Shown here in pieces: positions 21,019 to 64,000 of a stretch of DNA of 64,000 nucleotides (position 1 is its first letter; each line of letters opens with the position of its first letter). The notes under the pieces were generated by a model. It was not told the origin of the DNA. It searched no databases and saw nothing but the letters and a program-made list of their open reading frames with translations. The stretch lies in IMG/VR virus record IMGVR_UViG_3300028030_000006, positions 29,611 through 93,610 of that record. One strand, 5' to 3'. A program made the position numbers and the translations under genes. Source of the DNA: a virus (lineage: Duplodnaviria > Heunggongvirae > Uroviricota > Caudoviricetes).

Positions 21019-21070
21019 CAACGTTTATATGTTTTTATACTCGTTTATAGACGTTTATATACGTTTAAAG
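21019..21070. promoter_or_regulatory. Three to four copies of 'ACGTTTATA(T/G)' (ATATAAACG on the - strand) in an AT-rich spacer
   Basis: aacgtttatatg / ctcgtttatagac / gacgtttatatac / tacgtttaaagg lie within 52 bp. A related 'gacgtttatat' recurs at 54287-54297 in another large intergenic region. Confidence 0.4.
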
Positions 21071-21107
21071 GTTAGCGAAACATCGTGCTACAGGGGTCTG
21101 TAGAGGA

Positions 21108-21213
21108 TTCTCAACACTTGATAATGTAATTTCAACACTTGATAATGTAATTTCAACACTTGATAATGTAATTTCAACACTTGATAATGTAATTTCAACA
21201 CTTGATAATGTAA
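21108..21213. repeat. Five tandem 21-bp direct repeats (TTTCAACACTTGATAATGTAA). Iteron-like array.
   Basis: Perfect copies lie at 21130, 21151, 21172 and 21193, with a variant first copy at 21108. The array sits in a 360-bp AT-rich intergenic region between two - strand genes. Confidence 0.85.
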
Positions 21214-21227
21214 AAACTATAAAAACA

Positions 21228-33132: not shown

Positions 33133-33879
33133 TTAGATAGAGTATATCGGAAAGCTGCTTAAAACTTCCTTAATCTCTGCTTCAGTTACATTATTTGGTA
33201 GCGTAGTCTGATCTTTCCATGATGGTCCAATATCTAACTCAGCTTCGTTGTGGATAACTTGATTCTCACAATAATCTTGTACCATATGAGGGATAAGGTG
33301 GTCGTTTAACCATTTAATACTCTCAACATCAGCTTTCACTAAACCATACAAGGCATCATGTATTTGGTTAGTTACAATAACGTAATCTTGCATACTATCG
33401 TGCTCAATATCTTCTTGTAACCCAATACCAGCTCTGTTCATCAATAAACCGTATGACTGAATACTCATATTATTTAAAGTTCTACCTTCTTTACCAGCAA
33501 TAATACGGTCATTGCTCCATATCCTAGGGGTACGTAATTTTAACCCGAAAGCTCCAATAATGTATCCTGTAGCTTTCGATTTACGTATGTTCTCTTCTGC
33601 AAATTTAGCAGTACCGTAGTACAGCTCATGGTACCCGTCATAAACTGCATTTGCTACAGTTTTAGAGCACTTCAATAGATCCTGTATCTTACCTGGACCT
33701 GAACCATAAGCCATCGCAAAAGATGGGCTTTTACTTTTCGCCCTAATATCTGGCAACTCTGTTTTAATTCTGTTGATGGACTTTGGATCACTCATATCCA
33801 ACTCTTCGCCTAACGCTTCGTCTATCTCGTCTTTAAAGAACGCGTAAGCTCTTAGACTATGTCCATCGAACCCTTCACC
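33133..33879 (-). CDS. DNA polymerase A, C-terminal part (exon 2 or second polypeptide): O-helix (motif B) and motif C
   Basis: The open frame extends upstream of the track start (a TTG at 33801) to a stop at 33880-33882. It contains 'IRAKSKSPSFAMAYGSG' (motif B, R..AK...F...YG) and 'NQIHDALYG' (motif C, with HDA in place of HDE). Confidence 0.6.
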   Translation of the reverse strand, partial: GEGFDGHSLRAYAFFKDEIDEALGEELDMSDPKSINRIKTELPDIRAKSKSPSFAMAYGSGPGKIQDLLKCSKTVANAVYDGYHELYYGTAKFAEENIRKSKATGYIIGAFGLKLRTPRIWSNDRIIAGKEGRTLNNMSIQSYGLLMNRAGIGLQEDIEHDSMQDYVIVTNQIHDALYGLVKADVESIKWLNDHLIPHMVQDYCENQVIHNEAELDIGPSWKDQTTLPNNVTEAEIKEVLSSFPIYSI

Positions 33880-34010
33880 TTAATGTTCAACATAGGTCGT
33901 TAATCTATGCCAGTTCTCTTATGAACTTCTGTATATCTCTATACAGAGCAGATCATCTCAACATCCTAGTAATTTAAGGATGACCACCGTTTCTTCCCAC
34001 TTGGGTTCTA

Positions 34011-34196
34011 CTAGCTTACGCTATGATCGTTAGACATTTTAATAACGTCTGATATAATATTATGTGTAAATAGTTCTGTATTCCCTTTTCTCACCAATAC
34101 TCTCGAGCCTGTATACAATTTATCTTGATGTTTATTACGTATTTGTTGCTCAATTTTGTGGGCTAATTCTAAAGCTTCAAGTTCTACTGAGTACAA
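34011..34196 (-). pseudogene. Remnant of a T5orf172/GIY-YIG-like endonuclease C-terminal domain
   Basis: The 61-aa ORF 'LYTGSRVLVRKGNTELFTHNIISDV' parallels the C-terminus of the neighbouring 315-aa endonuclease ('YYGRKVIRSGNTELYTQDITEI'). Confidence 0.4.
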
Positions 34197-34393
34197 GATG
34201 TAATAATTTCACATTTATATCCGTTATTAATTTAGTACGGGATTGTCCACAACCTTACTTGTTTGGAGTTTCCCCGTTTAGATGGTTTTCGACATAAGAT
34301 TACTCTTATGAAGCCCTGAAATCAAGGAATTCTTTTCGTTTATTGGAGTCACCTGAAACCTGAGCCCCCACCCTATCTTCCTTTAAGGTTCCT

Positions 34394-35341
34394 TTAAGGT
34401 TCCTTTGTAATACTACCTAGGTATTTTGTGGTAATTTCGGTAATATCTTGGGTGTAAAGTTCAGTATTTCCTGACCTAATTACTTTTCGTCCGTAGTACT
34501 TGAATGGTTTTAATATTCCAGCTAGGTCAGCCTCTGCCTTATATGCTAATTCGCTAGAACCAAACGTATGCTGGTAGAGTACTATGTAAGGTTCAGGCTC
34601 TCCACTAAACCTATGTTTTACTGTATGTATAGTAACTCCAAGCTTCCATAAATTAAGTCGGGTAAAGTATATGACATACAAGAGTGTTTTAGTTTCTATG
34701 TCTTTATTTAAGTACCCTCGGTTACATAATGGACATCCTTTCCCTTTTCGATGGTTTTGATAGTCTTGTCTCACCTCGCCATGCACAGGACAGTCATAGA
34801 TAATCGTTGGATTTGCATCGACGCGTGCATAGATTAGGTCTTTATATGTATAAGTATGATTATGTGTTTGTATTAGTAGAGGTATTACCTGCTTTAACAT
34901 TACACGCTTCTGTTTGGCTGATGATAGAAAACCACAACACTTACAACCCTTACCTTGTAGATGATCATATTTTCTCTGTTTTCTAATACCATGCTCCATA
35001 CATATATAATAGACGTAATGTTTATCGATTTTTACATAACTATACTGATTATTATGAATTTTAGAGCAACGAATTTTAAAATCTTTAAATGATATCCTCC
35101 GATTAAGACCACGCTGCTTTCTAGCACAGATAGGACACCCATATTTAGTCTTGAGAATACCATCTGGCGTACTAGTAAAGTCTCCATGTAACTTACATGT
35201 AAATACTGATTTACATTTTGCACAAGAAAAGCTAAATTTATCTGTTAGAATCTTGCCATGGAATCTATTTTTGATTCGTTCTCTGTAAACCATAGAATAA
35301 TCTTTCACTTTACTTTCCTTCTGTTTTGTTGTTAATACCAC
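34394..35341 (-). CDS. Homing endonuclease-like protein: N-terminal Zn-ribbon repeats plus C-terminal T5orf172/GIY-YIG-superfamily domain
   Basis: Repeated CxxC pairs (CAKCKS, CPICARK, CKCCG, CPLCNRG) are present. The C-terminal 'LLYVIYFTRLNLWKLGVTIHTVKHRF...AEADLAGILKPF...GNTELYTQD' fits the T5orf172 pattern. The gene is located inside the polA interruption. Confidence 0.55.
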   Translation of the reverse strand: MVLTTKQKESKVKDYSMVYRERIKNRFHGKILTDKFSFSCAKCKSVFTCKLHGDFTSTPDGILKTKYGCPICARKQRGLNRRISFKDFKIRCSKIHNNQYSYVKIDKHYVYYICMEHGIRKQRKYDHLQGKGCKCCGFLSSAKQKRVMLKQVIPLLIQTHNHTYTYKDLIYARVDANPTIIYDCPVHGEVRQDYQNHRKGKGCPLCNRGYLNKDIETKTLLYVIYFTRLNLWKLGVTIHTVKHRFSGEPEPYIVLYQHTFGSSELAYKAEADLAGILKPFKYYGRKVIRSGNTELYTQDITEITTKYLGSITKEP

Positions 35342-35605
35342 ACTATGTCTCCATAGTGAATAGACTATATCACCACCCGTAGTGTAATCTACGGGGCTCC
35401 CCGTTTCGAGCTACCACTGCTCTACGTCTTACGACTAGTCGTTGAACCTTATCCATATCTAATAAAGACTTAGGATCTTGGCTGCTGATTGTCTCTATTA
35501 CTTAAATTTTCAGAGTTCGTTACATATTTCTATGTGATATTCTATTAAGTACCTTATAAGATATTCCAGCAATTAGAGGAGTTTTTCCAAATCTTATTAC
35601 TAAGA

Positions 35606-37393
35606 TTAGGCGCTCAAAGATTCAAGCGCCGCGTAGTCAGACGACCAAAATAAATAACCTTCTGGGGCGGGAAAGCAGGCTTTAATCAATTTTCCCATCG
35701 CCCCTTTTGAAGGGAGATTCGCGAAGTTTGGTGAGTTACTACTCAACCGACCTGTTACAGTTCCTCCAAGACGTTGATTGCCGTACAGACGTCCAATATC
35801 TCCTTGCCCTACATCTGTCCAAAGATCTTCAAACGCCTTCAAGAATGTTGATAGTACGATACTAGTCTCTGAGATAGTTATAAGATTTTCTAATGCCTCC
35901 TTAGCATCCGGATCTGTTACTTTATCTAAAAACTCTATAATACTGTCACGATTAGTTTTAGGTTGCTTTTTATCTGTAAAGTCAATAGGCTCAAACTCTA
36001 GAATATCAAAGAGTAATACACGTAGCTGAGCAGAACTATTAGGGTTAAATTTAAGATCCACAAAATCATCCGCAGTTTTCTTTTTAACTTTAGTCTTAGC
36101 ATTATACTTATCAGCAGCCTCTAGACGTAGTTGTGTTAGAGCCTGTTTGACGTAGAAATTATCTTGCAACGTATCCATAGCTGCATCATAGAGTTTCTTA
36201 ACGTGTATTTTTGCTTCTTTTGTCTTTGTTTTTGAGATAGGCAACCCGGCTACCATCATATTTACTAAGTACTTTAAAGAGGGTTGAATAATAATACGAT
36301 ATGTATCTTCTTGCTCTTCTTCTTGCATAAGCTTATAGTATTTATTATAGACCCAAAACGTGCCTACTACATCCATTGCATTGTACTTATAGAGAGTATC
36401 TTTAGGTAAAGCTAGTACGTCTTTAACGTCGACTGCATAATCACCCAAGTACTCATAAGCTAAGTCCTTCAAAGATAATGAGAATCTAGATGTACTATTC
36501 AAAGATAAAAATGCCATTAGCATCGTATCTTCCGAATCTAAATAATTAGCACCTAACGTACGCCCAATGTGATCTAAAGGGTCTGCCATAAACAGATGAC
36601 GCACTAAAAACTTAGCATCAAATAAATAGTTATGGAAAATCTTAACACCATTGTAAGCAATAAAAAACTCTTTAAGCCAACCTTTAACTTCTTCTGCTTT
36701 ATCTTTACGCTCTTGGTCAGTACCTTCCCACAACGATTCATGTATAGGTAAAGTAACCGCTTGAGTATCAGACCATGCAAATGCAATAGACACCAACTCA
36801 TCACGCTCAAAGCGTAAACCTGTAGCCTCAATATCAATAGCTAGTATATCTTTGGATAATAGATGCTGTAATTCCCTCTCAGTACGTATTACCTTATAAA
36901 AATCAAACTTGAATTTTTTATCTTCTATTTCCTCATGGTTCATCTCAGCGGCTATACGTTTTAATGCTAAGTCTTGAGTTTTCTGCCGATCAGGGTACAT
37001 TTGAAGTAACACATGACTAAGCATAGGAATTACTTTAATATGCTCATAGCCTGAAATAGCACATTGAAAGGCTTTACCAGCATTCTTTTCAATGCCTTTT
37101 GTACCAGCTAAGTAATAAAAATACTTTGAATCTGTAACAATGATACGTTCAATCCCAAGTGTATCACACTCGTCTAACACCTCACTAGCACTTTCCACTA
37201 AATCCTTCTTTTTCAGATTTCCTGTAGCTGGGTAGTATAAGCCAATAGCTCCTATGTCAGCACCTGCAGGCACCTCAGTAGAGTATTTACTTATTGGGTA
37301 GATATAATTTTTTAGTATGAGATCCTTTTTGAGATTCACTTGCTTAACTAGTAACGCCGTTGTTTGATTAGTATCTATACCAAATCTTAACAT
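35606..37393 (-). CDS. DNA polymerase A, N-terminal part (exon 1): 3'-5' exonuclease domain plus polymerase palm up to motif A
   Basis: Exo I 'LAIDIEATGL' is present. The polymerase region ends with motif A 'FWSSDYAALE' and then runs into an in-frame stop after 'SLSA'. Confidence 0.7.
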   Translation of the reverse strand: MLRFGIDTNQTTALLVKQVNLKKDLILKNYIYPISKYSTEVPAGADIGAIGLYYPATGNLKKKDLVESASEVLDECDTLGIERIIVTDSKYFYYLAGTKGIEKNAGKAFQCAISGYEHIKVIPMLSHVLLQMYPDRQKTQDLALKRIAAEMNHEEIEDKKFKFDFYKVIRTERELQHLLSKDILAIDIEATGLRFERDELVSIAFAWSDTQAVTLPIHESLWEGTDQERKDKAEEVKGWLKEFFIAYNGVKIFHNYLFDAKFLVRHLFMADPLDHIGRTLGANYLDSEDTMLMAFLSLNSTSRFSLSLKDLAYEYLGDYAVDVKDVLALPKDTLYKYNAMDVVGTFWVYNKYYKLMQEEEQEDTYRIIIQPSLKYLVNMMVAGLPISKTKTKEAKIHVKKLYDAAMDTLQDNFYVKQALTQLRLEAADKYNAKTKVKKKTADDFVDLKFNPNSSAQLRVLLFDILEFEPIDFTDKKQPKTNRDSIIEFLDKVTDPDAKEALENLITISETSIVLSTFLKAFEDLWTDVGQGDIGRLYGNQRLGGTVTGRLSSNSPNFANLPSKGAMGKLIKACFPAPEGYLFWSSDYAALESLSA

Positions 37394-49650: not shown

Positions 49651-50233
49651 CGAATAACAGTTCAGCTATTTGTTTTATGTTTTTATAGTGCAAGTTATCC
49701 TCTTTTTCAGCTTTAGCTATTAACTCATCTAAAATCCCATAAAAACAACCTCTATTAACGTATATAGTATTGTTATACCTTACCAAAGTTAATACACCAT
49801 TCTCATAACCGATATGGGATATAACTTTTATATCCTTTTGTCTTTTTAACTCAATGTCATCAAATAAAGTACCATATAATTTTGTATATAGCTTTGCATT
49901 ATTAAACATTATTGCATTATTAAACATTGCTGCATTATTAAACATTGCTGCATTATCATATAGCTTTGTATTATTGAACATTTCTGCATTATCATATAGC
50001 TTTGTATTATTAAACATTGCTGCATTATCATATAGCTTTGTATTATTAAACATTGCTGCATTATCATATAACCAACAAGTACCTTCTTGACTTAAGTTAT
50101 GTTCGTTGTTTACATAACCCCCTAAATCACCTTTTTTAACATTACCAAAGTCTTTTAATGCTTTAATTTGATAATTAACACCAGCACCATAAAATTTATG
50201 GTTTGGTTGTAATTTTATTAATTCATATTTCAT
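49637..50233 (-). CDS. Hypothetical protein containing an in-frame tandem 12-aa repeat (KLYDNAAMFNNT)
   Basis: The 36-bp DNA unit 'attatcatatagctttgtattattaaacattgctgc' is repeated about 3 times, plus 18-bp sub-repeats, at roughly 49890-50075. Confidence 0.45.
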   Translation of the reverse strand: MKYELIKLQPNHKFYGAGVNYQIKALKDFGNVKKGDLGGYVNNEHNLSQEGTCWLYDNAAMFNNTKLYDNAAMFNNTKLYDNAEMFNNTKLYDNAAMFNNAAMFNNAIMFNNAKLYTKLYGTLFDDIELKRQKDIKVISHIGYENGVLTLVRYNNTIYVNRGCFYGILDELIAKAEKEDNLHYKNIKQIAELLFDEGK

Positions 50234-56392: not shown

Positions 56393-56501
56393 GTCGAAGA
56401 TCGATTATGTTAAGATATATATAGAATAGTATTGTTACTATCGAGAGGTAACCTCGAATCCTTTTAAGCTAAATTTATACAATACGTTGTAATGACTACA
56501 A

Positions 56502-56548
56502 AATGTAAATCTTGACCGTTATTAGTTACAAAGGTCAAGATTTACATT
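56502..56548 (-). terminator. Perfect 16-bp inverted repeat (AATGTAAATCTTGACC ... GGTCAAGATTTACATT) with a 15-nt loop. Candidate terminator after the 129-aa gene.
   Basis: The perfect palindromic arms lie 90 nt downstream of the stop of the 56638..57027 gene. On the - strand the hairpin is followed by UUUG. Confidence 0.4.
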
Positions 56549-56637: not shown

Positions 56638-57027
56638 TTATAGTAGAGCGTTAGCTTCTGTATCAGCATTACCTAACCAATATGCAGCACCTAGTAAGTT
56701 AGCATCTGTAGCAATTGCACGACATAACTCAGCATTTAGTGAAAAGTTCTCATCAGCGATATCAGTACAAGTAGCAGCAACTGCAGCGCTATGTCGCTGT
56801 TTAATTACTTGTAGCAGTGATTCCTCATCCAACATTGACATCGATACACACCCACTCACAGTCTCGATTGTTAAATTTTTGTTAGCTTTTAAAGCTCCTT
56901 TTGAAGAACCTTTATATGCTTCTACTGCTGCTTCGACTGTACCAATGATTGTATCGATCTCTTTGTCGATAGATTTACCTTTTTGTGCTTTTTTGATTGT
57001 TTGAGTTAATAATTTTGAGAAACGCAT
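56638..57027 (-). CDS. Hypothetical protein
   Basis: 129-aa ORF with RBS AAAAGGATATAAAATG. It is the last gene of the RT operon. Confidence 0.4.
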   Translation of the reverse strand: MRFSKLLTQTIKKAQKGKSIDKEIDTIIGTVEAAVEAYKGSSKGALKANKNLTIETVSGCVSMSMLDEESLLQVIKQRHSAAVAATCTDIADENFSLNAELCRAIATDANLLGAAYWLGNADTEANALL

Positions 57028-57109
57028 TTTATATCCTTTTATTTTAAAGTTTATGGGTTATGAAGGGACTTACCAAACTAAATACTCCGACCGTAAATAC
57101 AGATAGGTT

Positions 57110-58879
57110 TTAGCTAAAGCCTTCTATAACTGTATTTATGTACTTTAATACTGCTGTATAATCACCAGGCATGATTTTTACTCCTTTACGTGGATTTGAC
57201 ATATAGATCGTTTTAATTCCCTGAGTTTTTTGACAATCTATATGTAAAGGTATATTTGAATTAAGAACAGAGGATAGTGCTTTAAATTCAATACCATATT
57301 CATCATATAGTATGTCTTTCAGTGGTTGATCACCTCGATACACACTAATAGAACGTCTATCCTTATACGCTACAAACTTAGTAGGATCAGGTAACGGCAG
57401 CGTTGTATGTTTAACCTCATCCACCTTAGCCACACCGCCAACTGTAAGCATGATAGTCCGTGAATCTAATACCTCTTTAACCTGTCTAGGGATTTTAGAG
57501 TACGAGTCTACTACAGGAAGGACAATATCTCCTTCCTTAAATGTATCTGTAACAGATACACTATTTACTGCAATAATATTTTCTGTAGTTACAGTAAACA
57601 TAGTATCACTAGACATTATAGTAATACCAGATACATCTATTGACCTAATAATACCACTGTGGATGATGGAAGTATTAGGATTGGTAAATGTTACATTATC
57701 ACCAACCTGTACAAGTAGATGACTAACAGAGTTGATAGATACTACAACACTGGTATTTTCTGCATATATATTTATAATATTCTGCTGTTGATCTACACTA
57801 ATTACCTCGAAAGTACCTCCTCGAAGGGTTTTAGGTATCTCTGGATCAAACCGTAACACAACTTTCTGGTTTGGTCTGATTTGCAGCCCTGGTGTATACT
57901 CTACAATTTCATCAAGTCGTTTGGATAACACATCCCCAGTAGAGTTTCTATATTTAATCTCATCATCACTTACCGATATAACTGTATAACATCTTGTAAT
58001 ATTCCTGAAGTATACTCGAGAGCCTACTGGCGGCTCTAATACACAATTTGACTCCCGCGCTTTAAGTTCTGGTAAAGGTTCATCACGTTGGTGATAGGAA
58101 ATAATTTCTTCACTAACAGCAGTTATTACACCTTTTTGTAACTCTGCATCTTTTTGATATACTTGTATATGATCACCAATACGAAATTTTGTGGACTCTG
58201 GTGGCATTTCTCCTCCTTTTTTAATATGTACTATTTTATTATTACGGACCCATGTAGTAGTCCCAGATGGTTGTTGTATTTTGAACATTCTCTTGAAGGC
58301 ATCTATCTCTCCAACAGTTACCTCATGAGCTATACCATCATCATAAAATAGTAGCTCATCATCAACTTGTGGCACTAGTGAGTGTACAAAAGATAAGTTT
58401 ATCCTAGTAATTTTGCGTGTTTTTGGATCTTGGACATCAAAATCTAATGATACGTCTGGCATAGAAACTACATTTACTACAGCTTGAGAGAATTCATGAG
58501 GGATGGAGACCAGTACACTCGAGTGTAATTTAATTTGGTCTCCAATATTCAACTGTAAAGGCTTGGGACACACTTCCCTAATACTGCCATAATCTTTAAT
58601 ATTTTCGTATAATAGAGTAGTAGAAGTAAATATGCCTCGAGTCCTAACATAATAACTTAAGTAGAAATAACGAATAGAGTCATCATAGTCAAATTTAACC
58701 TCATCACCAATGTCAGGTCTAAGCATTAGATGCTTAGTATCCCAGCGAGTTACCCCATGTTCTGGTATCTGTACGGTAACCACATCAGAATTTGTTGAAA
58801 GTATCGTGCCTATTGAGTCTGTTGACTTATTATATACCTTATTACCAACATGAAAAACTTTTGAAACTTCCGATGACAT
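57110..58879 (-). CDS. Large hypothetical protein built of repeated small beta-barrel-like (SH3/KOW/Tudor-like) modules. Translationally coupled to the RT.
   Basis: The 589-aa product has recurring '(V/I)GD.(V/I)...' modules: VGNKVYNK, IGDQIKLH, IGDHIQVY, VGSRVYFR, VGDNVTFT, EGDIVLPV. Its ATG lies 1 nt after the RT stop (TGAtATG), with a GAGG RBS inside the RT 3' end. Confidence 0.5.
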   Translation of the reverse strand: MSSEVSKVFHVGNKVYNKSTDSIGTILSTNSDVVTVQIPEHGVTRWDTKHLMLRPDIGDEVKFDYDDSIRYFYLSYYVRTRGIFTSTTLLYENIKDYGSIREVCPKPLQLNIGDQIKLHSSVLVSIPHEFSQAVVNVVSMPDVSLDFDVQDPKTRKITRINLSFVHSLVPQVDDELLFYDDGIAHEVTVGEIDAFKRMFKIQQPSGTTTWVRNNKIVHIKKGGEMPPESTKFRIGDHIQVYQKDAELQKGVITAVSEEIISYHQRDEPLPELKARESNCVLEPPVGSRVYFRNITRCYTVISVSDDEIKYRNSTGDVLSKRLDEIVEYTPGLQIRPNQKVVLRFDPEIPKTLRGGTFEVISVDQQQNIINIYAENTSVVVSINSVSHLLVQVGDNVTFTNPNTSIIHSGIIRSIDVSGITIMSSDTMFTVTTENIIAVNSVSVTDTFKEGDIVLPVVDSYSKIPRQVKEVLDSRTIMLTVGGVAKVDEVKHTTLPLPDPTKFVAYKDRRSISVYRGDQPLKDILYDEYGIEFKALSSVLNSNIPLHIDCQKTQGIKTIYMSNPRKGVKIMPGDYTAVLKYINTVIEGFS

Positions 58880-58880
58880 A

Positions 58881-59789
58881 TCAACGCCTCGCTCTCGGCT
58901 CTTTACATGAAGCCCACTCTATTAATCCTAATGTACGTGTAATATCTTGCTGATGTATCGCTTGGCGAAGTTGCATTTTAGTCTTTCTAGTACGATATAC
59001 CTGTGTATGATCTACCGCAACACCACAAATGATACGACGCATCCAAGGCTTATGCCCAAACTTTAATTTGGTCTTTTTAAAGTTAATCTTAAAGTTCGAC
59101 TCTTTTAAAAGATGATAAACGGTCTGCTTAATGGCTTCATAATCCATGCGATTGTTAAATGAGATCGTAATATCATCAGCATATACTGTCATACGTGCCT
59201 CAGAGGCTATTGTACGTACAGCATCATCTATTTGGTATGCTACCTCGATAAAGGCTATCGAAGCCAGTAAAGGACTTGTAGGAAGTCCTTGTCGGGTTAC
59301 ACCATTTAACAGACAATAATCGAGGATATCACTACTTATAGATAAGTTGTCAAACCTTTCTCGTGTAATTTGGTCGAAGAAGTTTTTCATGTCGAATTTC
59401 GCCGAATAGTTATACCCAATATGAGCTTTAGCATTTGTAACCGCATTGTAATTACTACGAAAGGCGTGAAACATTCCTCGTGTATCCATCAGAGACAGAA
59501 TTTGCTCAAGGTTTGGCAATAAGGATTGTAGTTTATGCTTATACTGGGTATTTGGAGCATATACATAGCGATAAGACCCATTACCTTTATCTATACGATG
59601 TACTTTACATGCTTTACACAACACTGTTGCTGTAAGTAGGTATGCAGCCTGCTTTGGCGTTTTATTTGTAATGTCATGAGTAGCTCCGTCAATAGTAATG
59701 ACATTATTATCTTCGTCGATCGTGACTTCAGGGTTGAAGCGGTAACGCCACTTCAACTCTTTCCAATCTTTGATTTTAGAGTTCGACAT
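58881..59789 (-). CDS. Reverse transcriptase (small, retron/Abi-like domain set)
   Basis: RT motifs are in order: 'GMFHAFRSNYNAVTNAKAH' (NAxxH), 'FDMKNFFDQI' (motif A Asp), 'QGLPTSPLL' (QGxxxSP), 'MTVYADDITISF' (YADD), 'INFKKTKL' and 'RRIICGVAVD'. The 302-aa gene has a strong RBS, AAGGAGGTAGT, before its ATG. Confidence 0.75.
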   Translation of the reverse strand: MSNSKIKDWKELKWRYRFNPEVTIDEDNNVITIDGATHDITNKTPKQAAYLLTATVLCKACKVHRIDKGNGSYRYVYAPNTQYKHKLQSLLPNLEQILSLMDTRGMFHAFRSNYNAVTNAKAHIGYNYSAKFDMKNFFDQITRERFDNLSISSDILDYCLLNGVTRQGLPTSPLLASIAFIEVAYQIDDAVRTIASEARMTVYADDITISFNNRMDYEAIKQTVYHLLKESNFKINFKKTKLKFGHKPWMRRIICGVAVDHTQVYRTRKTKMQLRQAIHQQDITRTLGLIEWASCKEPRARR

Positions 59790-59790
59790 A

Positions 59791-60033
59791 CTACCTCCTT
59801 GGACGTAATGGGAATACTTTCCCTGAAAATACCATATATAGCTTCCAGAAAAATCCTTTGTTTGTGTCTATGCGCCACGTTGGGTGGTCGAGTGAGTATT
59901 CCCATTTACGTCTTTTGTTTGTGGAGTAGGACGTCCCGAACAGTCTAAATGTTCGAATTTTGTGGTGAGTTTCTATGAGTACAACACCTCGTTTAAAGGC
60001 GTCTCGCATTTCTTGTTGGTGTTTGGTATTCAT
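59791..60033 (-). CDS. Small basic protein (80 aa) overlapping the inverted-repeat element upstream of the RT. Coding status uncertain.
   Basis: RBS AAGGAGAAGTG precedes the ATG at 60033, and the TGATG overlaps the upstream gene's stop. The ORF spans the 59801-59912 dyad element. Confidence 0.35.
   Translation of the reverse strand: MNTKHQQEMRDAFKRGVVLIETHHKIRTFRLFGTSYSTNKRRKWEYSLDHPTWRIDTNKGFFWKLYMVFSGKVFPLRPRR
59801..59912 (-). ncRNA. Candidate retron-like msr/msd ncRNA. An 18-bp inverted-repeat pair (a1/a2-like) flanks 76 nt and ends 1 nt before the RT RBS.
   Basis: 59801-59818 'ggacgtaatgggaatact' is the reverse complement (one indel) of 59895-59912 'agtattcccatttacgtc'. The internal hairpin 'ccaccc aacgtgg' and its position directly 5' of the RT match retron geometry. 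The region is short and overlaps an ORF. Confidence 0.25.
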
Positions 60034-60512
60034 CACTTCTCCTTATTTATTATGTTCTGTATTGTGGTATTTATAGCATCCCAAAATAAGAATCCTTCAG
60101 GCGTATCTTTCCAAACGAACGCCTGTTTTAAGGTAAGGTTCTCCATATTTGACATTTCCGCATACTTAATATGTGACTTTACAAGTCGCCAAACGCCTAG
60201 GCGTTTCAGTATACGTTTTTGCTCTTTGTTGAACGGGGTATAAGGTTTAAGTACTAAATCGTTTGGTAAACATATAGCTATCTTAGGACTAAACTCGCTA
60301 GGTTTTATCACTGAGTACTCAGCATATAACTCAATCAGTTCCGGGCTACTTGCAGCAGTAGCTAAATCACTGTACTTAGTACCATATTCTAACGTATCCC
60401 GCAAATCTACTACCCTTACGAGCAACTTAGTACTATCTAGTGTACATTTAAAGAAATGGCCAACGAATTTCGTCCAGTTTTTATCCATATATTGAGTTGT
60501 GTATTTATGCAT
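60033..60512 (-). CDS. Hypothetical protein, paralogue of the upstream gene
   Basis: The 159-aa product shares 'NWTKFVG..FK', 'WKDTPEG..FW..IN' with the 166-aa neighbour. Confidence 0.45.
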   Translation of the reverse strand: MHKYTTQYMDKNWTKFVGHFFKCTLDSTKLLVRVVDLRDTLEYGTKYSDLATAASSPELIELYAEYSVIKPSEFSPKIAICLPNDLVLKPYTPFNKEQKRILKRLGVWRLVKSHIKYAEMSNMENLTLKQAFVWKDTPEGFLFWDAINTTIQNIINKEK

Positions 60513-61005
60513 TTTCGTTCTCCTTAATATGTTTATTTATGTTAGCCCAGAAATTATACCCTTCCGGTGTGTCTTTCCAACAAAAAGCGCTTTGAAGTGT
60601 TATAGTGCTACTAATACTTCGGTAATCGTTAGTACGTTTTATATATTGATATATACGCTTTTTTGTGCGTTTCCATAATTTAAGACGTTTTAGGTTATGT
60701 TTTTCAGCCTTATCAAACTGAATTACCAACTCTAAACATATAATATCTGACAGACAGACAGACTTCTTGAGGTCTGTAACCCCTTCAGGTAAATATTCAG
60801 CATACGTAGGTTCGCCTGGCTCATTCTGATTCCTGTCCGTATATTCACGAATCGTACTAGTGGAATGTATTTCGTCGACGTCTACTAGTTTTAACACTTG
60901 TCCAAATTTTCTCGAGTCGGTAGGACTAACCACTTTAAAACGGCACCCTACAAATTTGGTCCAGTTGGCATCAAGTTGTGGAGCTGTCAATATTAACTTT
61001 TTCAT
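60505..61005 (-). CDS. Hypothetical protein, paralogue of the downstream gene (tandem duplication)
   Basis: 166 aa with RBS AAAAGGATAATACAATG. It is the first gene after promoter P2. Confidence 0.45.
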   Translation of the reverse strand: MKKLILTAPQLDANWTKFVGCRFKVVSPTDSRKFGQVLKLVDVDEIHSTSTIREYTDRNQNEPGEPTYAEYLPEGVTDLKKSVCLSDIICLELVIQFDKAEKHNLKRLKLWKRTKKRIYQYIKRTNDYRSISSTITLQSAFCWKDTPEGYNFWANINKHIKENENA

Positions 61006-61067
61006 TGTATTATCCTTTTATGTTTTTGTTTGATATTAGGTATGTGTATTATTAGGTAGGGTATTGA

Positions 61068-61150
61068 GTTACCTATTGGGTTACTTATTGGGTTACTTAT
61101 TGGGTTACTTATTACGCTACCTATTGGGTTACTTATTACGCTACCGTTTA
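61068..61150. repeat. Short tandem repeats (GGGTTACTTATT / ACGCTACCTATTGGGTTACTTATT) in the transcribed leader downstream of promoter P2
   Basis: Directly visible. The track ORF 61002..61193 merely translates these repeats (SNPI/SNPIG). Confidence 0.8.
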
Positions 61151-61202
61151 GCGTATCTCTATAGGTGTAAGTACCTATTACCTCTGCCGGCAATAGGTTT
61201 TT

Positions 61203-61231
61203 ATTATATCCAGATTTGAGCTTTTTGTCAA
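61203..61231 (-). promoter_or_regulatory. Consensus sigma-70 promoter P2 (TTGACA-17-TATAAT) directed into the - strand operon
   Basis: The reverse complement of 61203-61231 reads TTGACAaaaagctcaaatctggaTATAAT. It sits inside a ~140-bp element duplicated at 62456-62585. Confidence 0.7.
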
Positions 61232-61277
61232 GCGATTTCGCTTAAAACCATCTTAAATTTACAAATTTCAGGTAGAT

Positions 61278-61493
61278 TTAAGCCTTGACCATCGCTTTCG
61301 CTTTTGGTGTGAGGTAGTAGTCCAGACCTAACACCGTCTCCCGCAGCTCCAATAGTCCTGCTTGTATAGCTTTAGCCGGGCTTTTAACAAGCTTATTGTA
61401 AAGCTTGAATTGGCCTTTTAAGCTTGTACAACTTTCGCTATTTTCATGATGGTAGGTTTGAGACCCGCCTCCGACAAACTCTCCGGCTATCAT
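61278..61493 (-). CDS. Hypothetical protein (G+C-richer island gene)
   Basis: 71 aa. Codon composition is shifted relative to the rest of the window. Confidence 0.35.
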   Translation of the reverse strand: MIAGEFVGGGSQTYHHENSESCTSLKGQFKLYNKLVKSPAKAIQAGLLELRETVLGLDYYLTPKAKAMVKA

Positions 61494-61741
61494 TTCAAAC
61501 CTCCACAGTGTTTAGGGAAGCCATTACTATCGAGACGTGGTGTCATACCCGCCCCGTAACGAGATTCGAGAATTAAATATTCCCTATAACTTTGTGGGTC
61601 ACAATAAACTGTGACGTTATTGGGTCTATTGTACTGTTGAGGTGTTGTATATGATTCAGTATGTAGACCGCCCGCACTCTGACACGCTGAGAATGTCATA
61701 ATTATTGCGACGATGCCTAAGGCGTATTGATGTAGTTTCAT
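61490..61741 (-). CDS. Small lipoprotein (signal peptide plus lipobox FSAC)
   Basis: 'MKLHQYALGIVAIIMTFSACQSAGG' is a lipoprotein signal with the Cys at +1. The mature part is about 63 aa. Confidence 0.5.
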   Translation of the reverse strand: MKLHQYALGIVAIIMTFSACQSAGGLHTESYTTPQQYNRPNNVTVYCDPQSYREYLILESRYGAGMTPRLDSNGFPKHCGGLK

Positions 61742-61751
61742 GATATATCCT

Positions 61752-61979
61752 TTACTTGATTTCTTTTAATAGTTTGGTACAACGCTCCGCTTCTAGGCGG
61801 AATATCTCCCTATCGAGTTGAAGCGTTGTTTGTTCGGAGCGCCTATTTAGCAATTTTATGTGTACTCTCTCACAGACGTTCAGAGCTTCGCCAATAGTTG
61901 GTATATGCTTTACCCTTCGCAGAGCGATAAACTCCGCCTCAGGGAAGCATATACCACATTTAGACATACCTAATCCCAT
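61752..61979 (-). CDS. Small Cys-containing protein (possible TraR/DksA-like zinc finger; tentative)
   Basis: 'MSKCGICFPEAEFIALRRV...C' has a CxxC near the N-terminus. Length is 75 aa. Confidence 0.3.
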   Translation of the reverse strand: MGLGMSKCGICFPEAEFIALRRVKHIPTIGEALNVCERVHIKLLNRRSEQTTLQLDREIFRLEAERCTKLLKEIK

Positions 61980-62167
61980 AGTTCATCGAGCCGTGAGACA
62001 GGTTTCTTCGTAGTCGCCAAATCTTGACGCTTCTTAATAGTTAGGCGTCCTAGTTTTGCCGCCCTAGTTAGCGGCATTTTATTTTGAGGAGGTTTCGTGG
62101 TGTTTCGCTGCGCAGAGCGTTGGGTATATGGCTCCGCCCCTCTTATGTGGGTTCTACAGTTTATCAT
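61970..62167 (-). CDS. Hypothetical basic protein
   Basis: 65-aa ORF. It is the first ORF downstream of promoter P1, after a ~340-nt leader. Confidence 0.3.
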   Translation of the reverse strand: MINCRTHIRGAEPYTQRSAQRNTTKPPQNKMPLTRAAKLGRLTIKKRQDLATTKKPVSRLDELWD

Positions 62168-62384
62168 AATGATTCCTTTGTATAGTAAGAGCGATACGCT
62201 CTAAGTGACGAATAAGGTTCGTTTGGAGGCGTTAGTATCTAACGCGGACTAAAGGTGTTAAGAGATTTAATAATCCCTCCAGAGATACATATTTAGTAAC
62301 TTAATATGCTCGATAAGAATTGGAGACGGTTTATATAGGTTAGTAGGATATGTATCTATGTAAGGATTGTGAGGTACTGTGTAT

Positions 62385-62435
62385 ATTGAGCTACCTATTG
62401 GGTTCGTTATTGAGCTACCTATTGGGTTCGCTAAA
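62385..62435. repeat. Tandem repeat (GAGCTACCTATTGGGTTCG(T/C)TA..) in the P1 leader. Related to the P2 leader repeats.
   Basis: Two direct copies are present. They share the 'CCTATTGGGTT' core with 61068-61150. Confidence 0.75.
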
Positions 62436-62512
62436 CGGTATCATAATAAGTTAGCGTTTAGCGTATCTCTATAGGTGTAAGTACCTATTACCTCTGCCGG
62501 CAATAGGTTTTT

Positions 62513-62541
62513 ATTTTACCCAAATTTTCCGTTTTTGTCAA
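62513..62541 (-). promoter_or_regulatory. Near-consensus sigma-70 promoter P1 (TTGACA-17-TAAAAT) directed into the G+C-richer small-gene island
   Basis: The reverse complement of 62513-62541 reads TTGACAaaaacggaaaatttgggTAAAAT. It is in the same register as P2 within the duplicated element. A 57-bp stretch immediately downstream (62456-62512) is identical to 61146-61202. Confidence 0.65.
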
Positions 62542-62678
62542 GTGAAATCACTTAAATCTACCTGAAATTTGTAAATTTAAGCGTCCTCTAAGCTTATAGG
62601 ACGATTTCCGCCCACTTAGCCAACTTTGTTTCGAGCTTATCAAGCCAATCGTTTAAGGTTTTCATAAGGTTTCTCCTT

Positions 62679-62735
62679 CCCAGTTTTGGGGACGCCAAAC
62701 GCCCCAGTTTTGGGGACGCCAAACGCCCCAGTTTT
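62679..62735. repeat. 2.4 copies of a 24-bp direct repeat (CCCCAGTTTTGGGGACGCCAAACG), each forming a GGGG...CCCC hairpin
   Basis: Directly visible. Upstream of P1, in a non-coding region. Confidence 0.8.
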
Positions 62736-63252
62736 CATCCCATATTAAACCTTAAATTTAGCTTAAAAAGTTCGTGTAGGGTCGAAAAAATTCGAATGTT
62801 TTTCAAATTCCTTAAGCTACGATTAAGTTTATACTATAAGGAATTTTCGAGGTGGTTAAAAATTAAGCAGTCCGTGAATAGAAACTGCCTAAATTTTAAT
62901 CAGTTGGTTCGTTTCTTCTTTCGGCGATGAGGTTTCGCCTTTTTGCACCGAGGTGCTTTGATAATACCCCGAAACCTCGGTTTCGGGTTCAGCACTTCCT
63001 CGTGTTGATGCTGGTATCGCTGCAATGGTGAGCGGCAAGCCTCTCGGAACTCTGGGTCGTCCAGAAAGCGGTCGCCCAACTCCGAGAACGCTATCGTCCC
63101 GCGGTTGATATGGTATGACATAGGTGTACTCCTATATTGGTATATGTTCGATAAACGCCCCAATCTAGGGCGCTTGGTAGAAAATATGAAGATAACAGAC
63201 GGACGCGAAACGATACCATTTAACGATACCGAAACATCCGCCGAGCGGTAAT

Positions 63253-63310
63253 TGAAGCCCGCCCAAAGACGGGCGAATACTTGAAGCCCGCCCAAAGACG
63301 GGCGAATACT
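63253..63310. repeat. Two copies of a 29-bp direct repeat (TGAAGCCCGCCCAAAGACGGGCGAATACT), each containing a CGCCC/GGGCG hairpin
   Basis: Directly visible. Confidence 0.8.
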
Positions 63311-63876
63311 TGTACTAGAGCCCTCCGCTATGGGGCTGTTGGCAATTACATAATTCATCTCCAGAAAATTTCAAAACGCTTGCCGCTCCTCCCGCTAGGG
63401 GCGACCCAATAAAGGACGCGAAACGGTATGATATGAAATTTGTAGAGACCACCCCTTGCCGTTTTGGGGTGATAGAGATACGCTCTCTATGGGCGTTTGA
63501 CGCCATCGGCACTACTGCTCTAGGTGACGCCACGGGATTTATACCCACCCGCTAAGGGCACTGCCGCCAATCTATCTTAGTACCCGATACGATAACCAAC
63601 ATTTCATAGAAAACCGCTATTTGCCTTTTACCCCGTGTCGCTTCACGGGAAGATTATAGGCGGTTTGACTAAAACCACTAAGGTCAGTTGGCTATATTCT
63701 ATGCGTACATAATACGCCCCTAAAGCGGGGATATAGCCCTTCGTGGGCGGTTTTGACGGGTTGCCATAATCTTGGAAAATTCGGGGGTTGTCGTTAATCT
63801 TGGATAAATTTTTGACAGAAGTCGCCCTATCCTACTAAATAGGGCTTTGAATTTTTAAGTTAGATACAATTTATAA

Positions 63877-64000
63877 GCCATACGCTAAGCCATACGCTAA
63901 GCCATACGCTAAGCCATACGCTAAGCCATACGCTAAGCCATACGCTAAGCCATACGCTAAGCCATACGCTAAGCCATACGCTAAGCCATACGCTAAGCCA
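63877..64000. repeat. 12-bp tandem repeat (GCCATACGCTAA) with at least 10 copies, truncated by the window end
   Basis: Perfect copies run from 63877 to the last base of the window. Confidence 0.9.

What the first reader, a model, noticed from the sequence alone, without database searches (positions are those of the whole stretch)
61140..62600. Duplicated ~140-bp promoter cassettes with consensus sigma-70 promoters and an internally inverted 31-bp segment
Two elements, 61146-61282 and 62456-62585, share an identical 57-bp core (61146-61202 and 62456-62512) followed by a promoter: P2 is TTGACA-N17-TATAAT and P1 is TTGACA-N17-TAAAAT, both pointing into the - strand.

Upstream of the -35 each carries the same 31-bp segment (CTTAAATTTACAAATTTCAGGTAGATTTAAG), but in opposite orientations, bounded by CTTAA/TTAAG.

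Perfect-consensus promoters of this kind are typical of early phage promoters that hijack host RNAP, as with T5 early promoters. The flipped 31-mer could be an UP-like or factor-binding element that works in either orientation, or the footprint of a site-specific inversion.
Basis: seen in the sequence. Interest (0 to 1): 0.6.

Follow-up and report, generated by a model that had tools for sequence, protein, structure and literature searches.

The report
Twin early promoters of a phage
Two near-perfect bacterial-type promoters, each followed by the same 61-base leader and a run of 12-base repeats, head the early genes of an uncultured 93-kb phage; this is an ordinary kind of phage control region, and the "flipped" 31-mer is a small palindrome-like site inverted in place.

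Summary
Two cassettes on the - strand each carry TTGACA-N17-TATAAT or TAAAAT. These are the only two such matches in 64 kb. They share an identical block, which is 61 bp rather than 57 (61145-61205 = 62455-62515). They also share an exact 31-mer in opposite orientations.

The window is the end of a 93.5-kb contig of a novel lytic phage. The phage encodes its own sigma factor and a Rep3 initiator with separate 21-bp iterons. The cassettes sit at the head of a roughly 6-kb early operon, which includes a retron-type reverse transcriptase and ends at a strong terminator near 56.5 kb.

A related phage (L003/L016) has two homologous cassettes with the same hexamers. Its leader sequence is different, but it shares the motifs AACCCWATA and CCTATAGAG. 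One of its copies is convergent and precedes no gene.

The 31-mer consists of two 11-bp inverted half-sites around a 9-bp spacer. The promoter-distal (PA) orientation matches the relative, so the PB copy was inverted in place. Both cassettes still align without gaps. No recombinase gene was found in the window.

Best reading: tandem early promoters read by host sigma-70, with a phage-specific leader. New member of a known kind; modest interest.

The parts
62513..62541 (-). Promoter PB: TTGACA (62541-62536), 17-bp spacer, TAAAAT (62518-62513). Predicted start near 62506.
   Evidence: Homologous to the L003 promoters. G at -14 is conserved.
61203..61231 (-). Promoter PA: TTGACA (61231-61226), 17-bp spacer, TATAAT (61208-61203). 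Predicted start near 61196.
62455..62515 (-). 61-bp block identical in both cassettes (PB copy). It covers the last 3 bases of the -10 hexamer, the discriminator and about the first 52 nt of the transcript.
61145..61205 (-). 61-bp block identical in both cassettes (PA copy).
62484..62507 (-). Predicted 5'-terminal RNA hairpin, PB copy: CCUAUUGCC-GGCAGA-GGUAAUAGG, 9 bp.
61174..61197 (-). Predicted 5'-terminal RNA hairpin, PA copy. Same sequence as the PB copy.
62429..62463 (-). Second predicted hairpin of the PB leader: CGCUAAACG...CGUUUAGCG. It uses the 3' end of the core.
   Evidence: I7; z -4.2.
61137..61155 (-). Second predicted hairpin of the PA leader: UACGCUA-AACGG-UAGCGUA. It uses the same core end but a different partner.
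61062..61145 (-). 12/24-nt tandem array in the PA leader (GTAACCCAATAA / GTAGCGTAATAA on the sense strand), with four TAACCCAATA motifs.
   Evidence: One unit fewer in a second sample (L002).
62384..62433 (-). 24-nt tandem array in the PB leader (CGAACCCAATAGGTAGCTCAATAA on the sense strand).
61252..61282 (+). 31-mer upstream element of PA, at about -86 to -56. It has 11-bp inverted half-sites CTTAAAT[T/C]TAC and the 9-bp spacer AAATTTCAG. This orientation is shared with the L003 - cassette.
62551..62581 (-). 31-mer upstream element of PB, at about -75 to -45. It is the exact reverse complement of the PA copy and is the derived, flipped state.
61230..61243 (-). 14-bp palindrome AAGCGAAATCGCTT overlapping the -35 hexamer of PA.
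   Evidence: Read; coordinates. Not conserved in L003.
62540..62553 (-). 14-bp palindrome AAGTGATTTCACTT overlapping the -35 hexamer of PB. The palindrome is kept through paired C>T and G>A changes relative to PA.
   Evidence: Read; coordinates.
61278..62167 (-). Four small early ORFs between PB and PA (65, 75, 83 and 71 aa). None has a family assignment above threshold.
   Evidence: Gene calls in L008/L014.
56638..61005 (-). Early genes downstream of PA: paralogous 166-aa and 159-aa proteins, a retron-type RT (58881-59789), a 589-aa protein and a conserved 129-aa protein.
56498..56548 (-). Probable intrinsic terminator ending the early operon: a 16-bp hairpin followed by UUUU.
   Evidence: -23 kcal/mol, z -6.95.

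Best explanation
PB and PA are two tandem early promoters of a lytic phage, 1,310 bp apart. They are read by the host's housekeeping (sigma-70-type) RNA polymerase straight after infection. Together they drive a roughly 6-kb early operon running from 62.5 to 56.5 kb on the - strand. The operon holds four tiny ORFs, two paralogous proteins, a retron-type RT, a 589-aa protein and a 129-aa protein, and it ends at a strong hairpin terminator.

Both transcripts start with the same leader. A 9-bp hairpin sits at or within about 2 nt of the 5' end. A second hairpin is built on the shared CGCUAAACG. After that comes a G-poor, A/C-rich tract of 12-nt repeats carrying AACCCAAUA, and then the Shine-Dalgarno sequence.

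I infer that the leader is a cis-acting module with two jobs. The 5' hairpin would protect the mRNA end, and the repeats would provide an unstructured, repeat-bearing tract. The leader is probably recognised by a phage-specific factor, because the two copies within each genome are kept alike while the leaders of the two related phages differ.

The 31-mer upstream element is a dyad-symmetric, A/T-rich (77%) site, most likely a binding site for a dimeric protein or an upstream activating sequence. Its opposite orientation in PB is an in-place inversion of a quasi-palindrome, of the kind produced by template switching between short inverted repeats. A symmetric site tolerates such an inversion.

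What is shown: the sequences, their uniqueness, their position, their homology to the cassettes of a related phage, and the predicted folds. What is inferred: promoter activity, start sites, RNA-level function, and the existence of any trans-acting factor.
For: - **Promoters.** They are the only two TTGACA-N17-TAWAAT matches in the window and the best 17-bp-spacer sites in a full scan. Both are intergenic and oriented with the gene array.
- **Phage context.** The window holds tail fibres, RNR, PolA, Pnkp/RNA ligase, a helicase, a Rep3 initiator and a phage sigma factor. Two sigma-70-dependent early promoters at the genome end, plus a phage-encoded sigma factor, were reported in phage 7-11 of the phiEco32-like group (PMC8948821).
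- **Conservation.** L003 (ENA) and L016 (JGI) come from a phage whose RT is 53% identical. They carry two cassettes with TTGACA-N17-TAAAAT, partly conserved spacers and a G at -14. Nothing else in these non-coding regions aligns at blastn level.
- **Leader.** The two copies are 61/61 identical while the flanks match at 60-80%. The 5' hairpin appears in every fold. The motifs AACCCWATA and CCTATAGAG occur almost only in cassette leaders in both phages. Leaders that precede ORFs are G-poor and C-rich (G 0.11-0.14, C 0.21-0.26), unlike other intergenic gaps.
- **31-mer.** It has a half-site structure (read from the sequence; one search shows perfect half-site matches at the cassettes plus a single extra copy at 14914). 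CTTAARTYTACCTGAAATTT lies at the same distance from the -35 hexamer in PA and in the L003 - cassette. PA and PB still align without gaps through this region, 24/31 forward against 31/31 reverse-complement. Spacer inversion by template switching is documented (PMC8604942).
- **Terminator.**
Against: - There are no transcript data, so promoter use and start sites are predictions.
- The host is unknown. A Gram-negative proteobacterium is inferred only from the best protein hits and from GH108 and heptosyltransferase domains.
- The leader folds are only modestly better than shuffles for the core alone (z -1.6). With two copies per genome there is no covariation; the L003 pair shows none.
- Repeat copy number varies between samples. 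That argues against a precisely folded RNA.
- One L003/L016 cassette is convergent and is followed by no ORF. A pure mRNA-leader role does not explain it.
- The -60 to -38 regions are only about 70% A+T, against 63% for the genome. They do not obviously match the UP-element consensus.
- The 61-bp identity could be a recent gene-conversion tract rather than the result of selection.
Confidence: 0.7

Rival explanations
1. The cassette is a self-contained unit whose product acts in trans. A strong promoter would express a short repeat-bearing RNA, or present a DNA array, that titrates a host or phage nucleic-acid-binding protein. This would be a sponge or decoy built on the AACCCWATA/UAG-rich repeats. 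Heading mRNAs would then be secondary.
For: - The L003/L016 phage keeps a full cassette (promoter plus about 170 nt of leader, 84-93% identical to its partner) in convergent orientation with no ORF downstream. Two independent assemblies confirm this.
- The motif arrays are confined to the cassettes and vary in copy number.
- The two copies evolve in concert within each genome, while the leaders differ between genomes.
Against: - In the window both cassettes run directly into genes, with no terminator after the leader.
- No known RNA family matches.
- No candidate binding protein was identified. A weak HutP hint for the conserved 129-aa protein failed a profile search.
- The orphan copy could equally be an antisense or collision promoter, or part of a terminator.
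Confidence: 0.15
2. The two 31-mers are recombination sites in inverted orientation, with lox/FRT-like or hix-like geometry (two half-sites around an asymmetric spacer). The 1,268-bp segment between them (61283-62550, holding PB, its leader and four ORFs) would then be an invertible switch.
For: - The perfect 31-bp inverted repeats flank a promoter-bearing segment (I1).
- The geometry is 11 + 9 + 11 bp, read from the sequence.
- In the flipped state, PA and PB would be divergent around one shared 31-mer.
Against: - No integrase, resolvase or invertase domain (E < 4e-6) was found in about 70 ORFs covering 64 of 93.5 kb.
- Both large assemblies and a Logan contig show the same arrangement.
- The related phage has only one half-site-like copy and no dyad.
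- The 31-mers occupy homologous, gaplessly aligned positions in two direct-repeat cassettes. That fits an in-place flip after duplication.
- A 9-bp spacer is atypical for tyrosine and serine recombinase sites (background knowledge).
Confidence: 0.05
3. Only the promoters matter. The 61-bp identity, the 31-mer identity and the repeats would be by-products of a recent duplication, patchy gene conversion and replication slippage, with no leader or upstream function.
For: - Sharp-edged blocks of 100% identity sit inside 60-80% flanks, which is what conversion tracts look like.
- Tandem arrays of unrelated sequence are common all over this genome.
- Copy number drifts between samples.
- The leader sequence is not conserved between the two phages at blastn level.
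Against: - The related phage keeps the same architecture: promoter, then a leader duplicated within the genome, then 12-nt periodic repeats carrying the same AACCCWATA and CCTATAGAG motifs.
- The upstream CTTAARTYTACCTGAAATTT element keeps its distance from the -35 hexamer.
- The 5' end of the predicted RNA is base-paired in all four copies.
Confidence: 0.2
4. The cassettes are DNA elements for replication or partition. A promoter plus short iterons would form a transcription-activated origin or a centromere-like site.
For: Direct 12-bp repeats lie next to a strong promoter, and there are two copies per genome.
Against: - The phage has a Rep3/WH1 initiator (21228-21911). Five perfect 21-bp iterons and an AT-rich 10-bp repeat lie right beside it (21021-21213). 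That is a far better origin candidate.
- A 12-bp period is not helically phased.
- No partition genes were detected.
Confidence: 0.04

Closest known systems
Tandem early promoters A1/A2/A3 of phage T7 and the strong early promoters of T5 (for example PN25). Host sigma-70 transcribes all T5 gene classes (PMC7472727 abstract). The remaining details are from background knowledge.
   Same: Several near-consensus host-type promoters are clustered at the start of the early region of a lytic phage. They point the same way and serve to capture host RNA polymerase.
   Different: The two promoters here are homologous cassettes that share a 61-bp identical initial transcribed region, downstream 12-nt repeat arrays and a dyad upstream element. 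None of this is tested experimentally. The phage is unrelated: its PolA is only 33% identical to the best GenBank phage hit.
phiEco32-like phages (phiEco32, 7-11): a phage-encoded sigma factor plus sigma-70-dependent early promoters (PMC8948821).
   Same: The overall plan is the same. Host sigma-70 reads early promoters and a phage sigma (here 32292-32912) takes over later genes. In 7-11 the two validated early promoters lie together at one genome end.
   Different: No homology of the promoters or the sigma factor to those phages was tested or claimed. The late-promoter motif of this phage was not found.
Lambda-type nutL/nutR (or HK022 putL/putR) leader elements (background knowledge).
   Same: A cis element is duplicated in the leaders of two early transcripts. 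The copies are nearly identical within a phage and differ between related phages, which suggests co-evolution with a phage-specific factor.
   Different: There is no boxA/boxB-like sequence. No internal terminators that would need overriding were found. No N-like protein was identified. One relative's copy heads no genes at all.
5'-terminal stem-loop mRNA stabilisers (ompA 5' UTR, T7 phi10 leader) and A/C-rich unstructured translational leaders (background knowledge).
   Same: A 9-bp hairpin is predicted at the very 5' end, followed by a G-poor, A/C-rich, largely unpaired tract that runs to the Shine-Dalgarno sequence.
   Different: The function is inferred from predicted folds only. The start site is unmapped, so the distance of the hairpin from the 5' end is uncertain by a few nucleotides.
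Inversion of the spacer of short inverted repeats by polymerase template switching (PMC8604942). Related: IRs in promoters and dimeric transcription factors (PMC13100816 abstract).
   Same: A segment bounded by short inverted arms (CTTAAAT...ATTTAAG) is replaced by its exact reverse complement, and both flanks keep their register.
   Different: The arms' single mismatch was swapped as well, so the switch points lay in the outer 7 bp. The inverted stretch of 17-31 bp is longer than the 2-5-bp spacers in the cited yeast cases.

Membership tests
Bacterial sigma-70 (housekeeping) promoter | -35 TTGACA and -10 TATAAT hexamers with a 17 ± 1 bp spacer | tested here: met
   PA scores 12/12 and PB 11/12, both with 17-bp spacers.
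Bacterial sigma-70 (housekeeping) promoter | Located upstream of genes and oriented with them, in non-coding DNA | tested here: met
   Both are intergenic and lie 192 and 340 nt upstream of - strand ORFs.
Bacterial sigma-70 (housekeeping) promoter | Hexamers conserved in homologous regions of relatives while the surroundings diverge | tested here: met
   L003/L016 + and - cassettes carry TTGACA-N17-TAAAAT with a G at -14. The rest of the non-coding DNA is not alignable.
Bacterial sigma-70 (housekeeping) promoter | Transcription starts about 7 nt downstream of the -10 hexamer and depends on E-sigma70 | not testable with these tools
   Needs 5'-end mapping or in vitro transcription.
UP element (alpha-CTD binding site) | A/T-rich tract at -38 to -59 matching nnAAAWWTWTTTTnnAAAAnnn | tested here: inconclusive
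   The -60 to -38 regions are 70-78% A+T, against 63% for the genome, with no clear match to the consensus. The 77% A+T 31-mer lies further upstream, at -86/-56 and -75/-45.
Invertible promoter segment (Hin/Gin, Fim or Cre/FLP-like) | Inverted repeats flanking a promoter-bearing segment | tested here: met
   31-bp perfect inverted repeats flank 1,268 bp containing PB.
Invertible promoter segment (Hin/Gin, Fim or Cre/FLP-like) | A cognate serine or tyrosine recombinase is encoded | tested here: not met
   No such Pfam or PHROG domain in about 70 ORFs of the window. About 29.5 kb of the genome was not visible.
Invertible promoter segment (Hin/Gin, Fim or Cre/FLP-like) | Both orientations are present in the population | tested here: inconclusive
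   Two large assemblies and one Logan contig agree with the window. However, short-read contigs break at the 31-mer, and raw reads could not be queried.
nut/put-type antitermination leader | boxA/boxB or put-like RNA, plus downstream terminators that are read through | tested here: not met
   No Rfam match. No - strand terminator lies between the promoters and 56.5 kb in the scan.
Iteron-type replication origin | Direct repeats bound by the element's Rep protein, usually next to rep and an AT-rich region | tested here: not met
   The Rep3 gene at 21228-21911 has its own 21-bp x 4.9 iterons and an AT-rich repeat at 21021-21213. The cassette 12-mers are unrelated in sequence.
Retron msr-msd or other RT-associated ncRNA | A structured ncRNA immediately adjacent to the RT gene, with terminal inverted repeats | tested here: not met
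   The cassettes lie 1.4 and 2.7 kb from the RT, with ORFs in between. A separate structured 244-nt gap directly upstream of the RT is the better candidate.

The most novel reading that the evidence does not exclude
The cassette is an autonomous module that can work without a gene behind it. It would combine a consensus promoter, a phage-specific leader and an array of AACCCWATA repeats. The module would make a repeat-bearing RNA, or present a DNA array, that captures a host or phage nucleic-acid-binding protein. It would be kept identical within each genome by selection. The evidence for this is the orphan, convergent copy conserved in the related phage.
Probability: 0.15. Interest if true: 0.65.

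Novelty: new member of a known kind. Interest (0 to 1): 0.3.

Why it matters
For an uncultured 93-kb phage with no close cultured relative, this pins down where infection-stage transcription most likely begins. It also delimits an early operon of about 6 kb that contains a retron-type reverse transcriptase.

The promoters could serve as strong, portable promoters for a proteobacterial host. The within-genome identity of the leader, together with the motif arrays shared with a related phage, gives a concrete handle (a 61-nt core, AACCCWATA repeats and a 31-bp dyad) for finding the regulator that switches early genes on or off.

None of this changes current understanding of phage transcription. 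It is a clean but ordinary example.

Tried and rejected
- **GenBank phages.** Megablast and blastn of the region found no match.
- **IMG/VR, exact searches.** Exact searches for the core and the 31-mer found none.
- **IMG/VR, RT search.** A single-sequence RT search found no relative.
- **IMG/VR, degenerate promoter pattern.** It returned over 120 hits, but all were generic TGn-extended -10 promoters of low-GC phages. None had a cassette leader or the motifs.
- **Sensitive local searches.** blastn-short and an nhmmer profile of the four cassettes, run against the window and about 90 RT-relative loci, found no further copies.
- **Protein next to PA.** The 166-aa protein has no homologue other than itself.
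- **Rfam.** Nothing at the cassettes or in the upstream non-coding DNA, in either the window or L003.
- **Covariation.** None is available from the L003 pair.
- **HutP lead.** The conserved 129-aa early protein gave a weak Pfam HutP hit (E 0.11). This was tempting, because HutP binds UAG repeats. A 5-sequence profile found no HutP among PDB sequences, so I rejected it.
- **Small leader ORF.** The 63-aa ORF across the PA array (61002-61193) is not preserved in PB, so I rejected it (read).
- **Origin idea.** Rejected in favour of the Rep3 gene with its own iterons at 21.1 kb.
- **Single-subunit RNA polymerase promoter.** CCTATAGAG and TAACCCT resemble such promoters, but no such polymerase domain was found and the spacing is wrong.
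- **Late-promoter motif search.** A k-mer search of the intergenic gaps found nothing usable.
- **Alternative-junction test for inversion.** This was not possible. The Logan k=31 contigs end exactly at the repeats.
Full report

Yes. Reading 60600-63200 and the repeat finder show two - strand elements. The block identical in both is 61 bp, slightly longer than reported. It spans 61145-61205 and 62455-62515, with zero mismatches and zero occurrences in 100 shuffles.

The pattern TTGACA-N17-TAWAAT occurs exactly twice in the 64-kb window, against 0.12 expected. The two sites are 61231->61203 (TATAAT, here PA) and 62541->62513 (TAAAAT, here PB), both on the - strand. Among 17-bp-spacer sites they score highest in my own full scan.

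The 31-mer CTTAAATTTACAAATTTCAGGTAGATTTAAG lies at 61252-61282 on the + strand. Its exact reverse complement lies at 62551-62581.

In gapless register the similarity is very uneven. It is 61/61 in the core, 19/26 in the promoter spacer, 13/20 and 16/20 upstream, and 50/83 in the downstream arrays.

The duplication is not an assembly artefact. Two independent Logan contigs (L001 and L014, run SRR8439022) both begin at the same base inside the core. They continue into the PA-specific and PB-specific flanks respectively. A second large assembly (L008, ENA, 93,531 bp) is identical across the region.

Each core is followed on the transcribed strand by 12/24-bp tandem repeats, at 61062-61145 and 62384-62433.

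**2. What is around it?**

The window is the last 64 kb of a contig of about 93.5 kb from an uncultured lytic phage. The contig breaks inside a 12-bp tandem array at 63874-64000.

The window encodes:
- tail fibres, RNR, a family-A DNA polymerase, Pnkp/RNA ligase and a helicase;
- ThyX, DNA ligase, primase, lysozymes, a Rep3/WH1 initiator and a sigma factor.

The polymerase is only 33% identical to its best GenBank phage hits, which are N4-like phages of Vibrio, Pseudomonas, Erwinia and Acinetobacter. There are no DNA-level matches in GenBank phages or IMG/VR.

Almost every gene from 9.8 to 62.2 kb is on the - strand. PB and PA sit at the very top of this array.

Downstream of PB lie a 340-nt leader and four ORFs of 65-83 aa. 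Downstream of PA lie a 192-nt leader, two paralogous proteins (166 and 159 aa), a 244-nt structured gap, a retron-type RT (RVT_1, E 1e-23), a 589-aa protein and a 129-aa protein.

A 16-bp hairpin followed by UUUU at 56498-56548 (dG -23 kcal/mol, z -6.95) most likely ends this unit. The next genes (AAA_5, DUF7192, helicase) are conserved in all relatives.

**3. Evidence from relatives**

A search with the RT found relatives at 52-55% identity. I retrieved their contigs.

One related phage carries two cassettes that are clearly homologous to PA and PB. It was assembled independently as L003 (ENA, 88 kb) and L016 (JGI). The cassettes are at L003 + 4130-4158 and L003 - 13363-13335. Both are TTGACA-N17-TAAAAT, with partly conserved spacers (AAAATCTGG) and a G at -14.

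Within that genome the promoter plus about 170 nt of leader form a 185-bp inverted repeat, 84-93% identical.

The leader sequence differs from the window's. It is not alignable by blastn. It does contain the same short motifs: AACCCWATA in 12-nt periodic repeats, and CCTATAGAG. In both phages these motifs occur essentially only in cassette leaders.

The arrangement also differs. In L003/L016 the cassettes are convergent and bracket about 9 kb of early genes, including the RT. The - strand copy is followed by no credible ORF or terminator.

Repeat copy number drifts between samples. L002 has one 12-mer fewer than the window. L016 has one extra 40-nt unit relative to L003.

Other RT relatives (L005, L010, L011, L012, L015 and about 80 more distant loci) show no cassette. 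I searched them with blastn-short and an nhmmer profile.

**4. The 31-mer**

Read directly from the sequence, it consists of two 11-bp inverted half-sites (CTTAAATTTAC and GTAGATTTAAG, 10/11 complementary) around a 9-bp asymmetric spacer (AAATTTCAG). It is 77% A+T. Perfect half-site matches lie at the two cassettes, plus a single extra copy at 14914.

If +1 is taken as 7 nt past the -10 hexamer, the 31-mer spans -86 to -56 at PA and -75 to -45 at PB.

The PA orientation is shared with the L003 - cassette. CTTAAGTTTACCTGAAATTT begins 51 nt upstream of the -35 hexamer, exactly as in PA. PA therefore shows the ancestral state and PB the flipped one.

PA and PB still align without gaps through this region. 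PB's 31-mer matches the in-register PA sequence at 24/31 positions. It matches the neighbouring PA 31-mer at 31/31 as a reverse complement. The seven differences are exactly those expected from inverting a quasi-palindrome in place. The single mismatch between the arms is swapped too, which places the switch points in the outer CTTAAAT/ATTTAAG.

Inversions of this kind, bounded by short inverted repeats, are a documented product of polymerase template switching (PMC8604942).

A dyad site read by a dimeric protein would be indifferent to such a flip. That would explain why it survived.

**5. Is it an active inversion system?**

I think not.

The two 31-mers are perfect inverted repeats flanking 1,268 bp that contain PB. 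This is formally the geometry of a Hin-like or Cre-like switch.

However, about 70 ORFs of the window show no integrase, resolvase or invertase domain. The related phage lacks the dyad. Every assembly has the same arrangement.

Two caveats apply. About 29.5 kb of the genome was not visible. Short-read contigs also break at the repeat, so minority orientations could not be excluded.

**6. The leader**

All folds place a 9-bp hairpin (CCUAUUGCC-GGCAGA-GGUAAUAGG) at the first nucleotides of the predicted RNA.

The end of the core (CGCUAAACG) forms a second hairpin with a different partner in each copy.

The rest of the leader is G-poor and C-rich (G 0.11-0.14, C 0.21-0.26), unlike other intergenic gaps. 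In PA this part is largely unpaired down to the Shine-Dalgarno sequence.

In L003 the 5' end is likewise sequestered in a long-range helix.

This is the layout of a stabilised, efficiently translated early mRNA. Similar layouts are known from the ompA and T7 phi10 leaders (background knowledge).

The stronger inference comes from the pattern of conservation. The two copies are alike within each genome, the leaders are unlike between genomes, and the short motifs are shared. This is the pattern seen for lambda-type nutL/nutR and their phage-specific N proteins. It suggests that a phage-specific factor reads the leader, either as RNA or as DNA.

I could not identify that factor. The early proteins are ORFans. 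A weak HutP hint for the conserved 129-aa protein failed a profile test.

**7. Alternatives**

- **Replication origin.** This role is unlikely. The Rep3 initiator at 21228-21911 has five perfect 21-bp iterons and an AT-rich repeat right beside it.
- **Known RNA family.** No Rfam family matches.
- **Gene conversion only.** The identity blocks might be nothing more than gene-conversion tracts. This cannot be excluded with two copies per genome. The shared architecture and motifs in the related phage argue for function.
- **Orphan cassette.** The convergent orphan cassette in L003/L016 is the one observation the plain "mRNA leader" model does not explain. It keeps open a more novel reading, in which the cassette is an autonomous RNA or DNA decoy module.

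**8. Verdict**

The finding is real and correctly interpreted in outline. PB and PA are tandem early promoters of the host sigma-70 type, with a shared leader, in a novel phage that also encodes its own sigma factor. This plan was reported experimentally for phage 7-11 of the phiEco32-like group (PMC8948821) and resembles T7 and T5.

The flipped 31-mer is an in-place inversion of a dyad-symmetric upstream site. It is not evidence of a switch.

This is a new member of a known kind. The interest is modest and rests mainly on the conserved leader motifs and on the orphan copy in the related phage.

Noticed in passing
window 21021-21911: A Rep3_N/WH1 replication initiator gene lies at 21228-21911 (-, E 4e-11). 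Directly beside it are five perfect 21-bp tandem repeats (TCAACACTTGATAATGTAATT, 21111-21213) and an AT-rich 10-bp repeat (21021-21067). This is probably a plasmid-style iteron origin in a lytic phage.
   Followed up: partly
window 32292-32912 (-): A phage-encoded sigma factor of 206 aa (Sigma70_r2, E 1e-11). Its promoter motif was not found by a simple k-mer search of the intergenic gaps.
   Followed up: partly
window 33133-37393 (-): The family-A DNA polymerase gene is split. The N-terminal part is at 35606-37393 and the C-terminal part at 33133-33801. A group I intron lies at 35341-35634 (RF00028, 92 bits). A 315-aa ORF (34394-35341, weak DUF723 hit) is probably a homing endonuclease. A further structured gap lies at 33802-34393.
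   Followed up: partly
window 58881-60032 (-): The early operon contains a retron-type RT of 302 aa. Its NAxxH motif (NAKAH) is conserved in relatives. It is preceded by a 244-nt non-coding gap that folds well (z -3.9), with a 17-bp long-range inverted repeat (59895-59912 / 59802-59818). This gap is a candidate RT-associated ncRNA. The synteny RT - large protein - 128/129-aa protein - AAA_5 - DUF7192 is conserved in five phage lineages.
   Followed up: partly
window 62600-64000: A non-coding region upstream of PB is richer in G+C (0.44 against 0.37). It holds several unrelated tandem arrays: 24 bp x 2.4 (62679-62735), 29 bp x 2.1 (63252-63312) and 12 bp x more than 10 (63874-64000, where the contig ends). 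It also holds GGACG-N-AAACG motifs and an inverted copy of ATAGAGATACGCT from the core (63469-63486). The related phage has an analogous repeat-rich non-coding stretch (L003 680-4130). Function unknown.
   Followed up: partly
L003 13160-13364 (-) and L016 9997-10297 (-): An orphan cassette in the related phage. It has a full consensus promoter plus about 170 nt of leader. It is convergent with the early operon, lies between the 128-aa gene and the AAA_5 gene, and has no ORF downstream.
   Followed up: partly
window 61970-62167 and 62594-62722 (-); L003 5220-5285 and 7125-7190: A peptide motif AAKLGRL / SPKLGRL recurs with different codons. It appears in the first ORF after PB, in a small ORF overlapping the 24-bp tandem repeat just upstream of PB, and twice in the related phage. 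This may be a family of tiny basic early proteins.
   Followed up: no
window 60033-61005 (-), also about 51.4 kb: The 166-aa and 159-aa early proteins are paralogues. They share a C-terminal W-x-D-T-P-E-G-x-x-F-W motif (PHROG 16354). A motif of the same kind appears in a third protein of the phage, seen in the flank of a promoter-like hit in L008.
   Followed up: no
window 49886-50070: The 36-bp tandem array differs in copy number between the window and the ENA assembly of the same phage. L008 diverges from the window at this point.
   Followed up: no
L012 2266-2418 (also L013): In another RT relative, a promoter-like site (TTAACA-N18-TATAAT) is followed by a G+C-rich stretch of about 120 nt, apparently structured, that runs straight into the RT start codon. 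This is possibly an RT-associated ncRNA.
   Followed up: no
L011 790-818 (-): A perfect TTGACA-N17-TATAAT with a GTAAATTTATAAATT upstream tract lies next to the RT gene of a third lineage and drives a divergent 222-aa gene. AAATTT-rich upstream tracts may be a shared feature of early promoters in this phage group.
   Followed up: no
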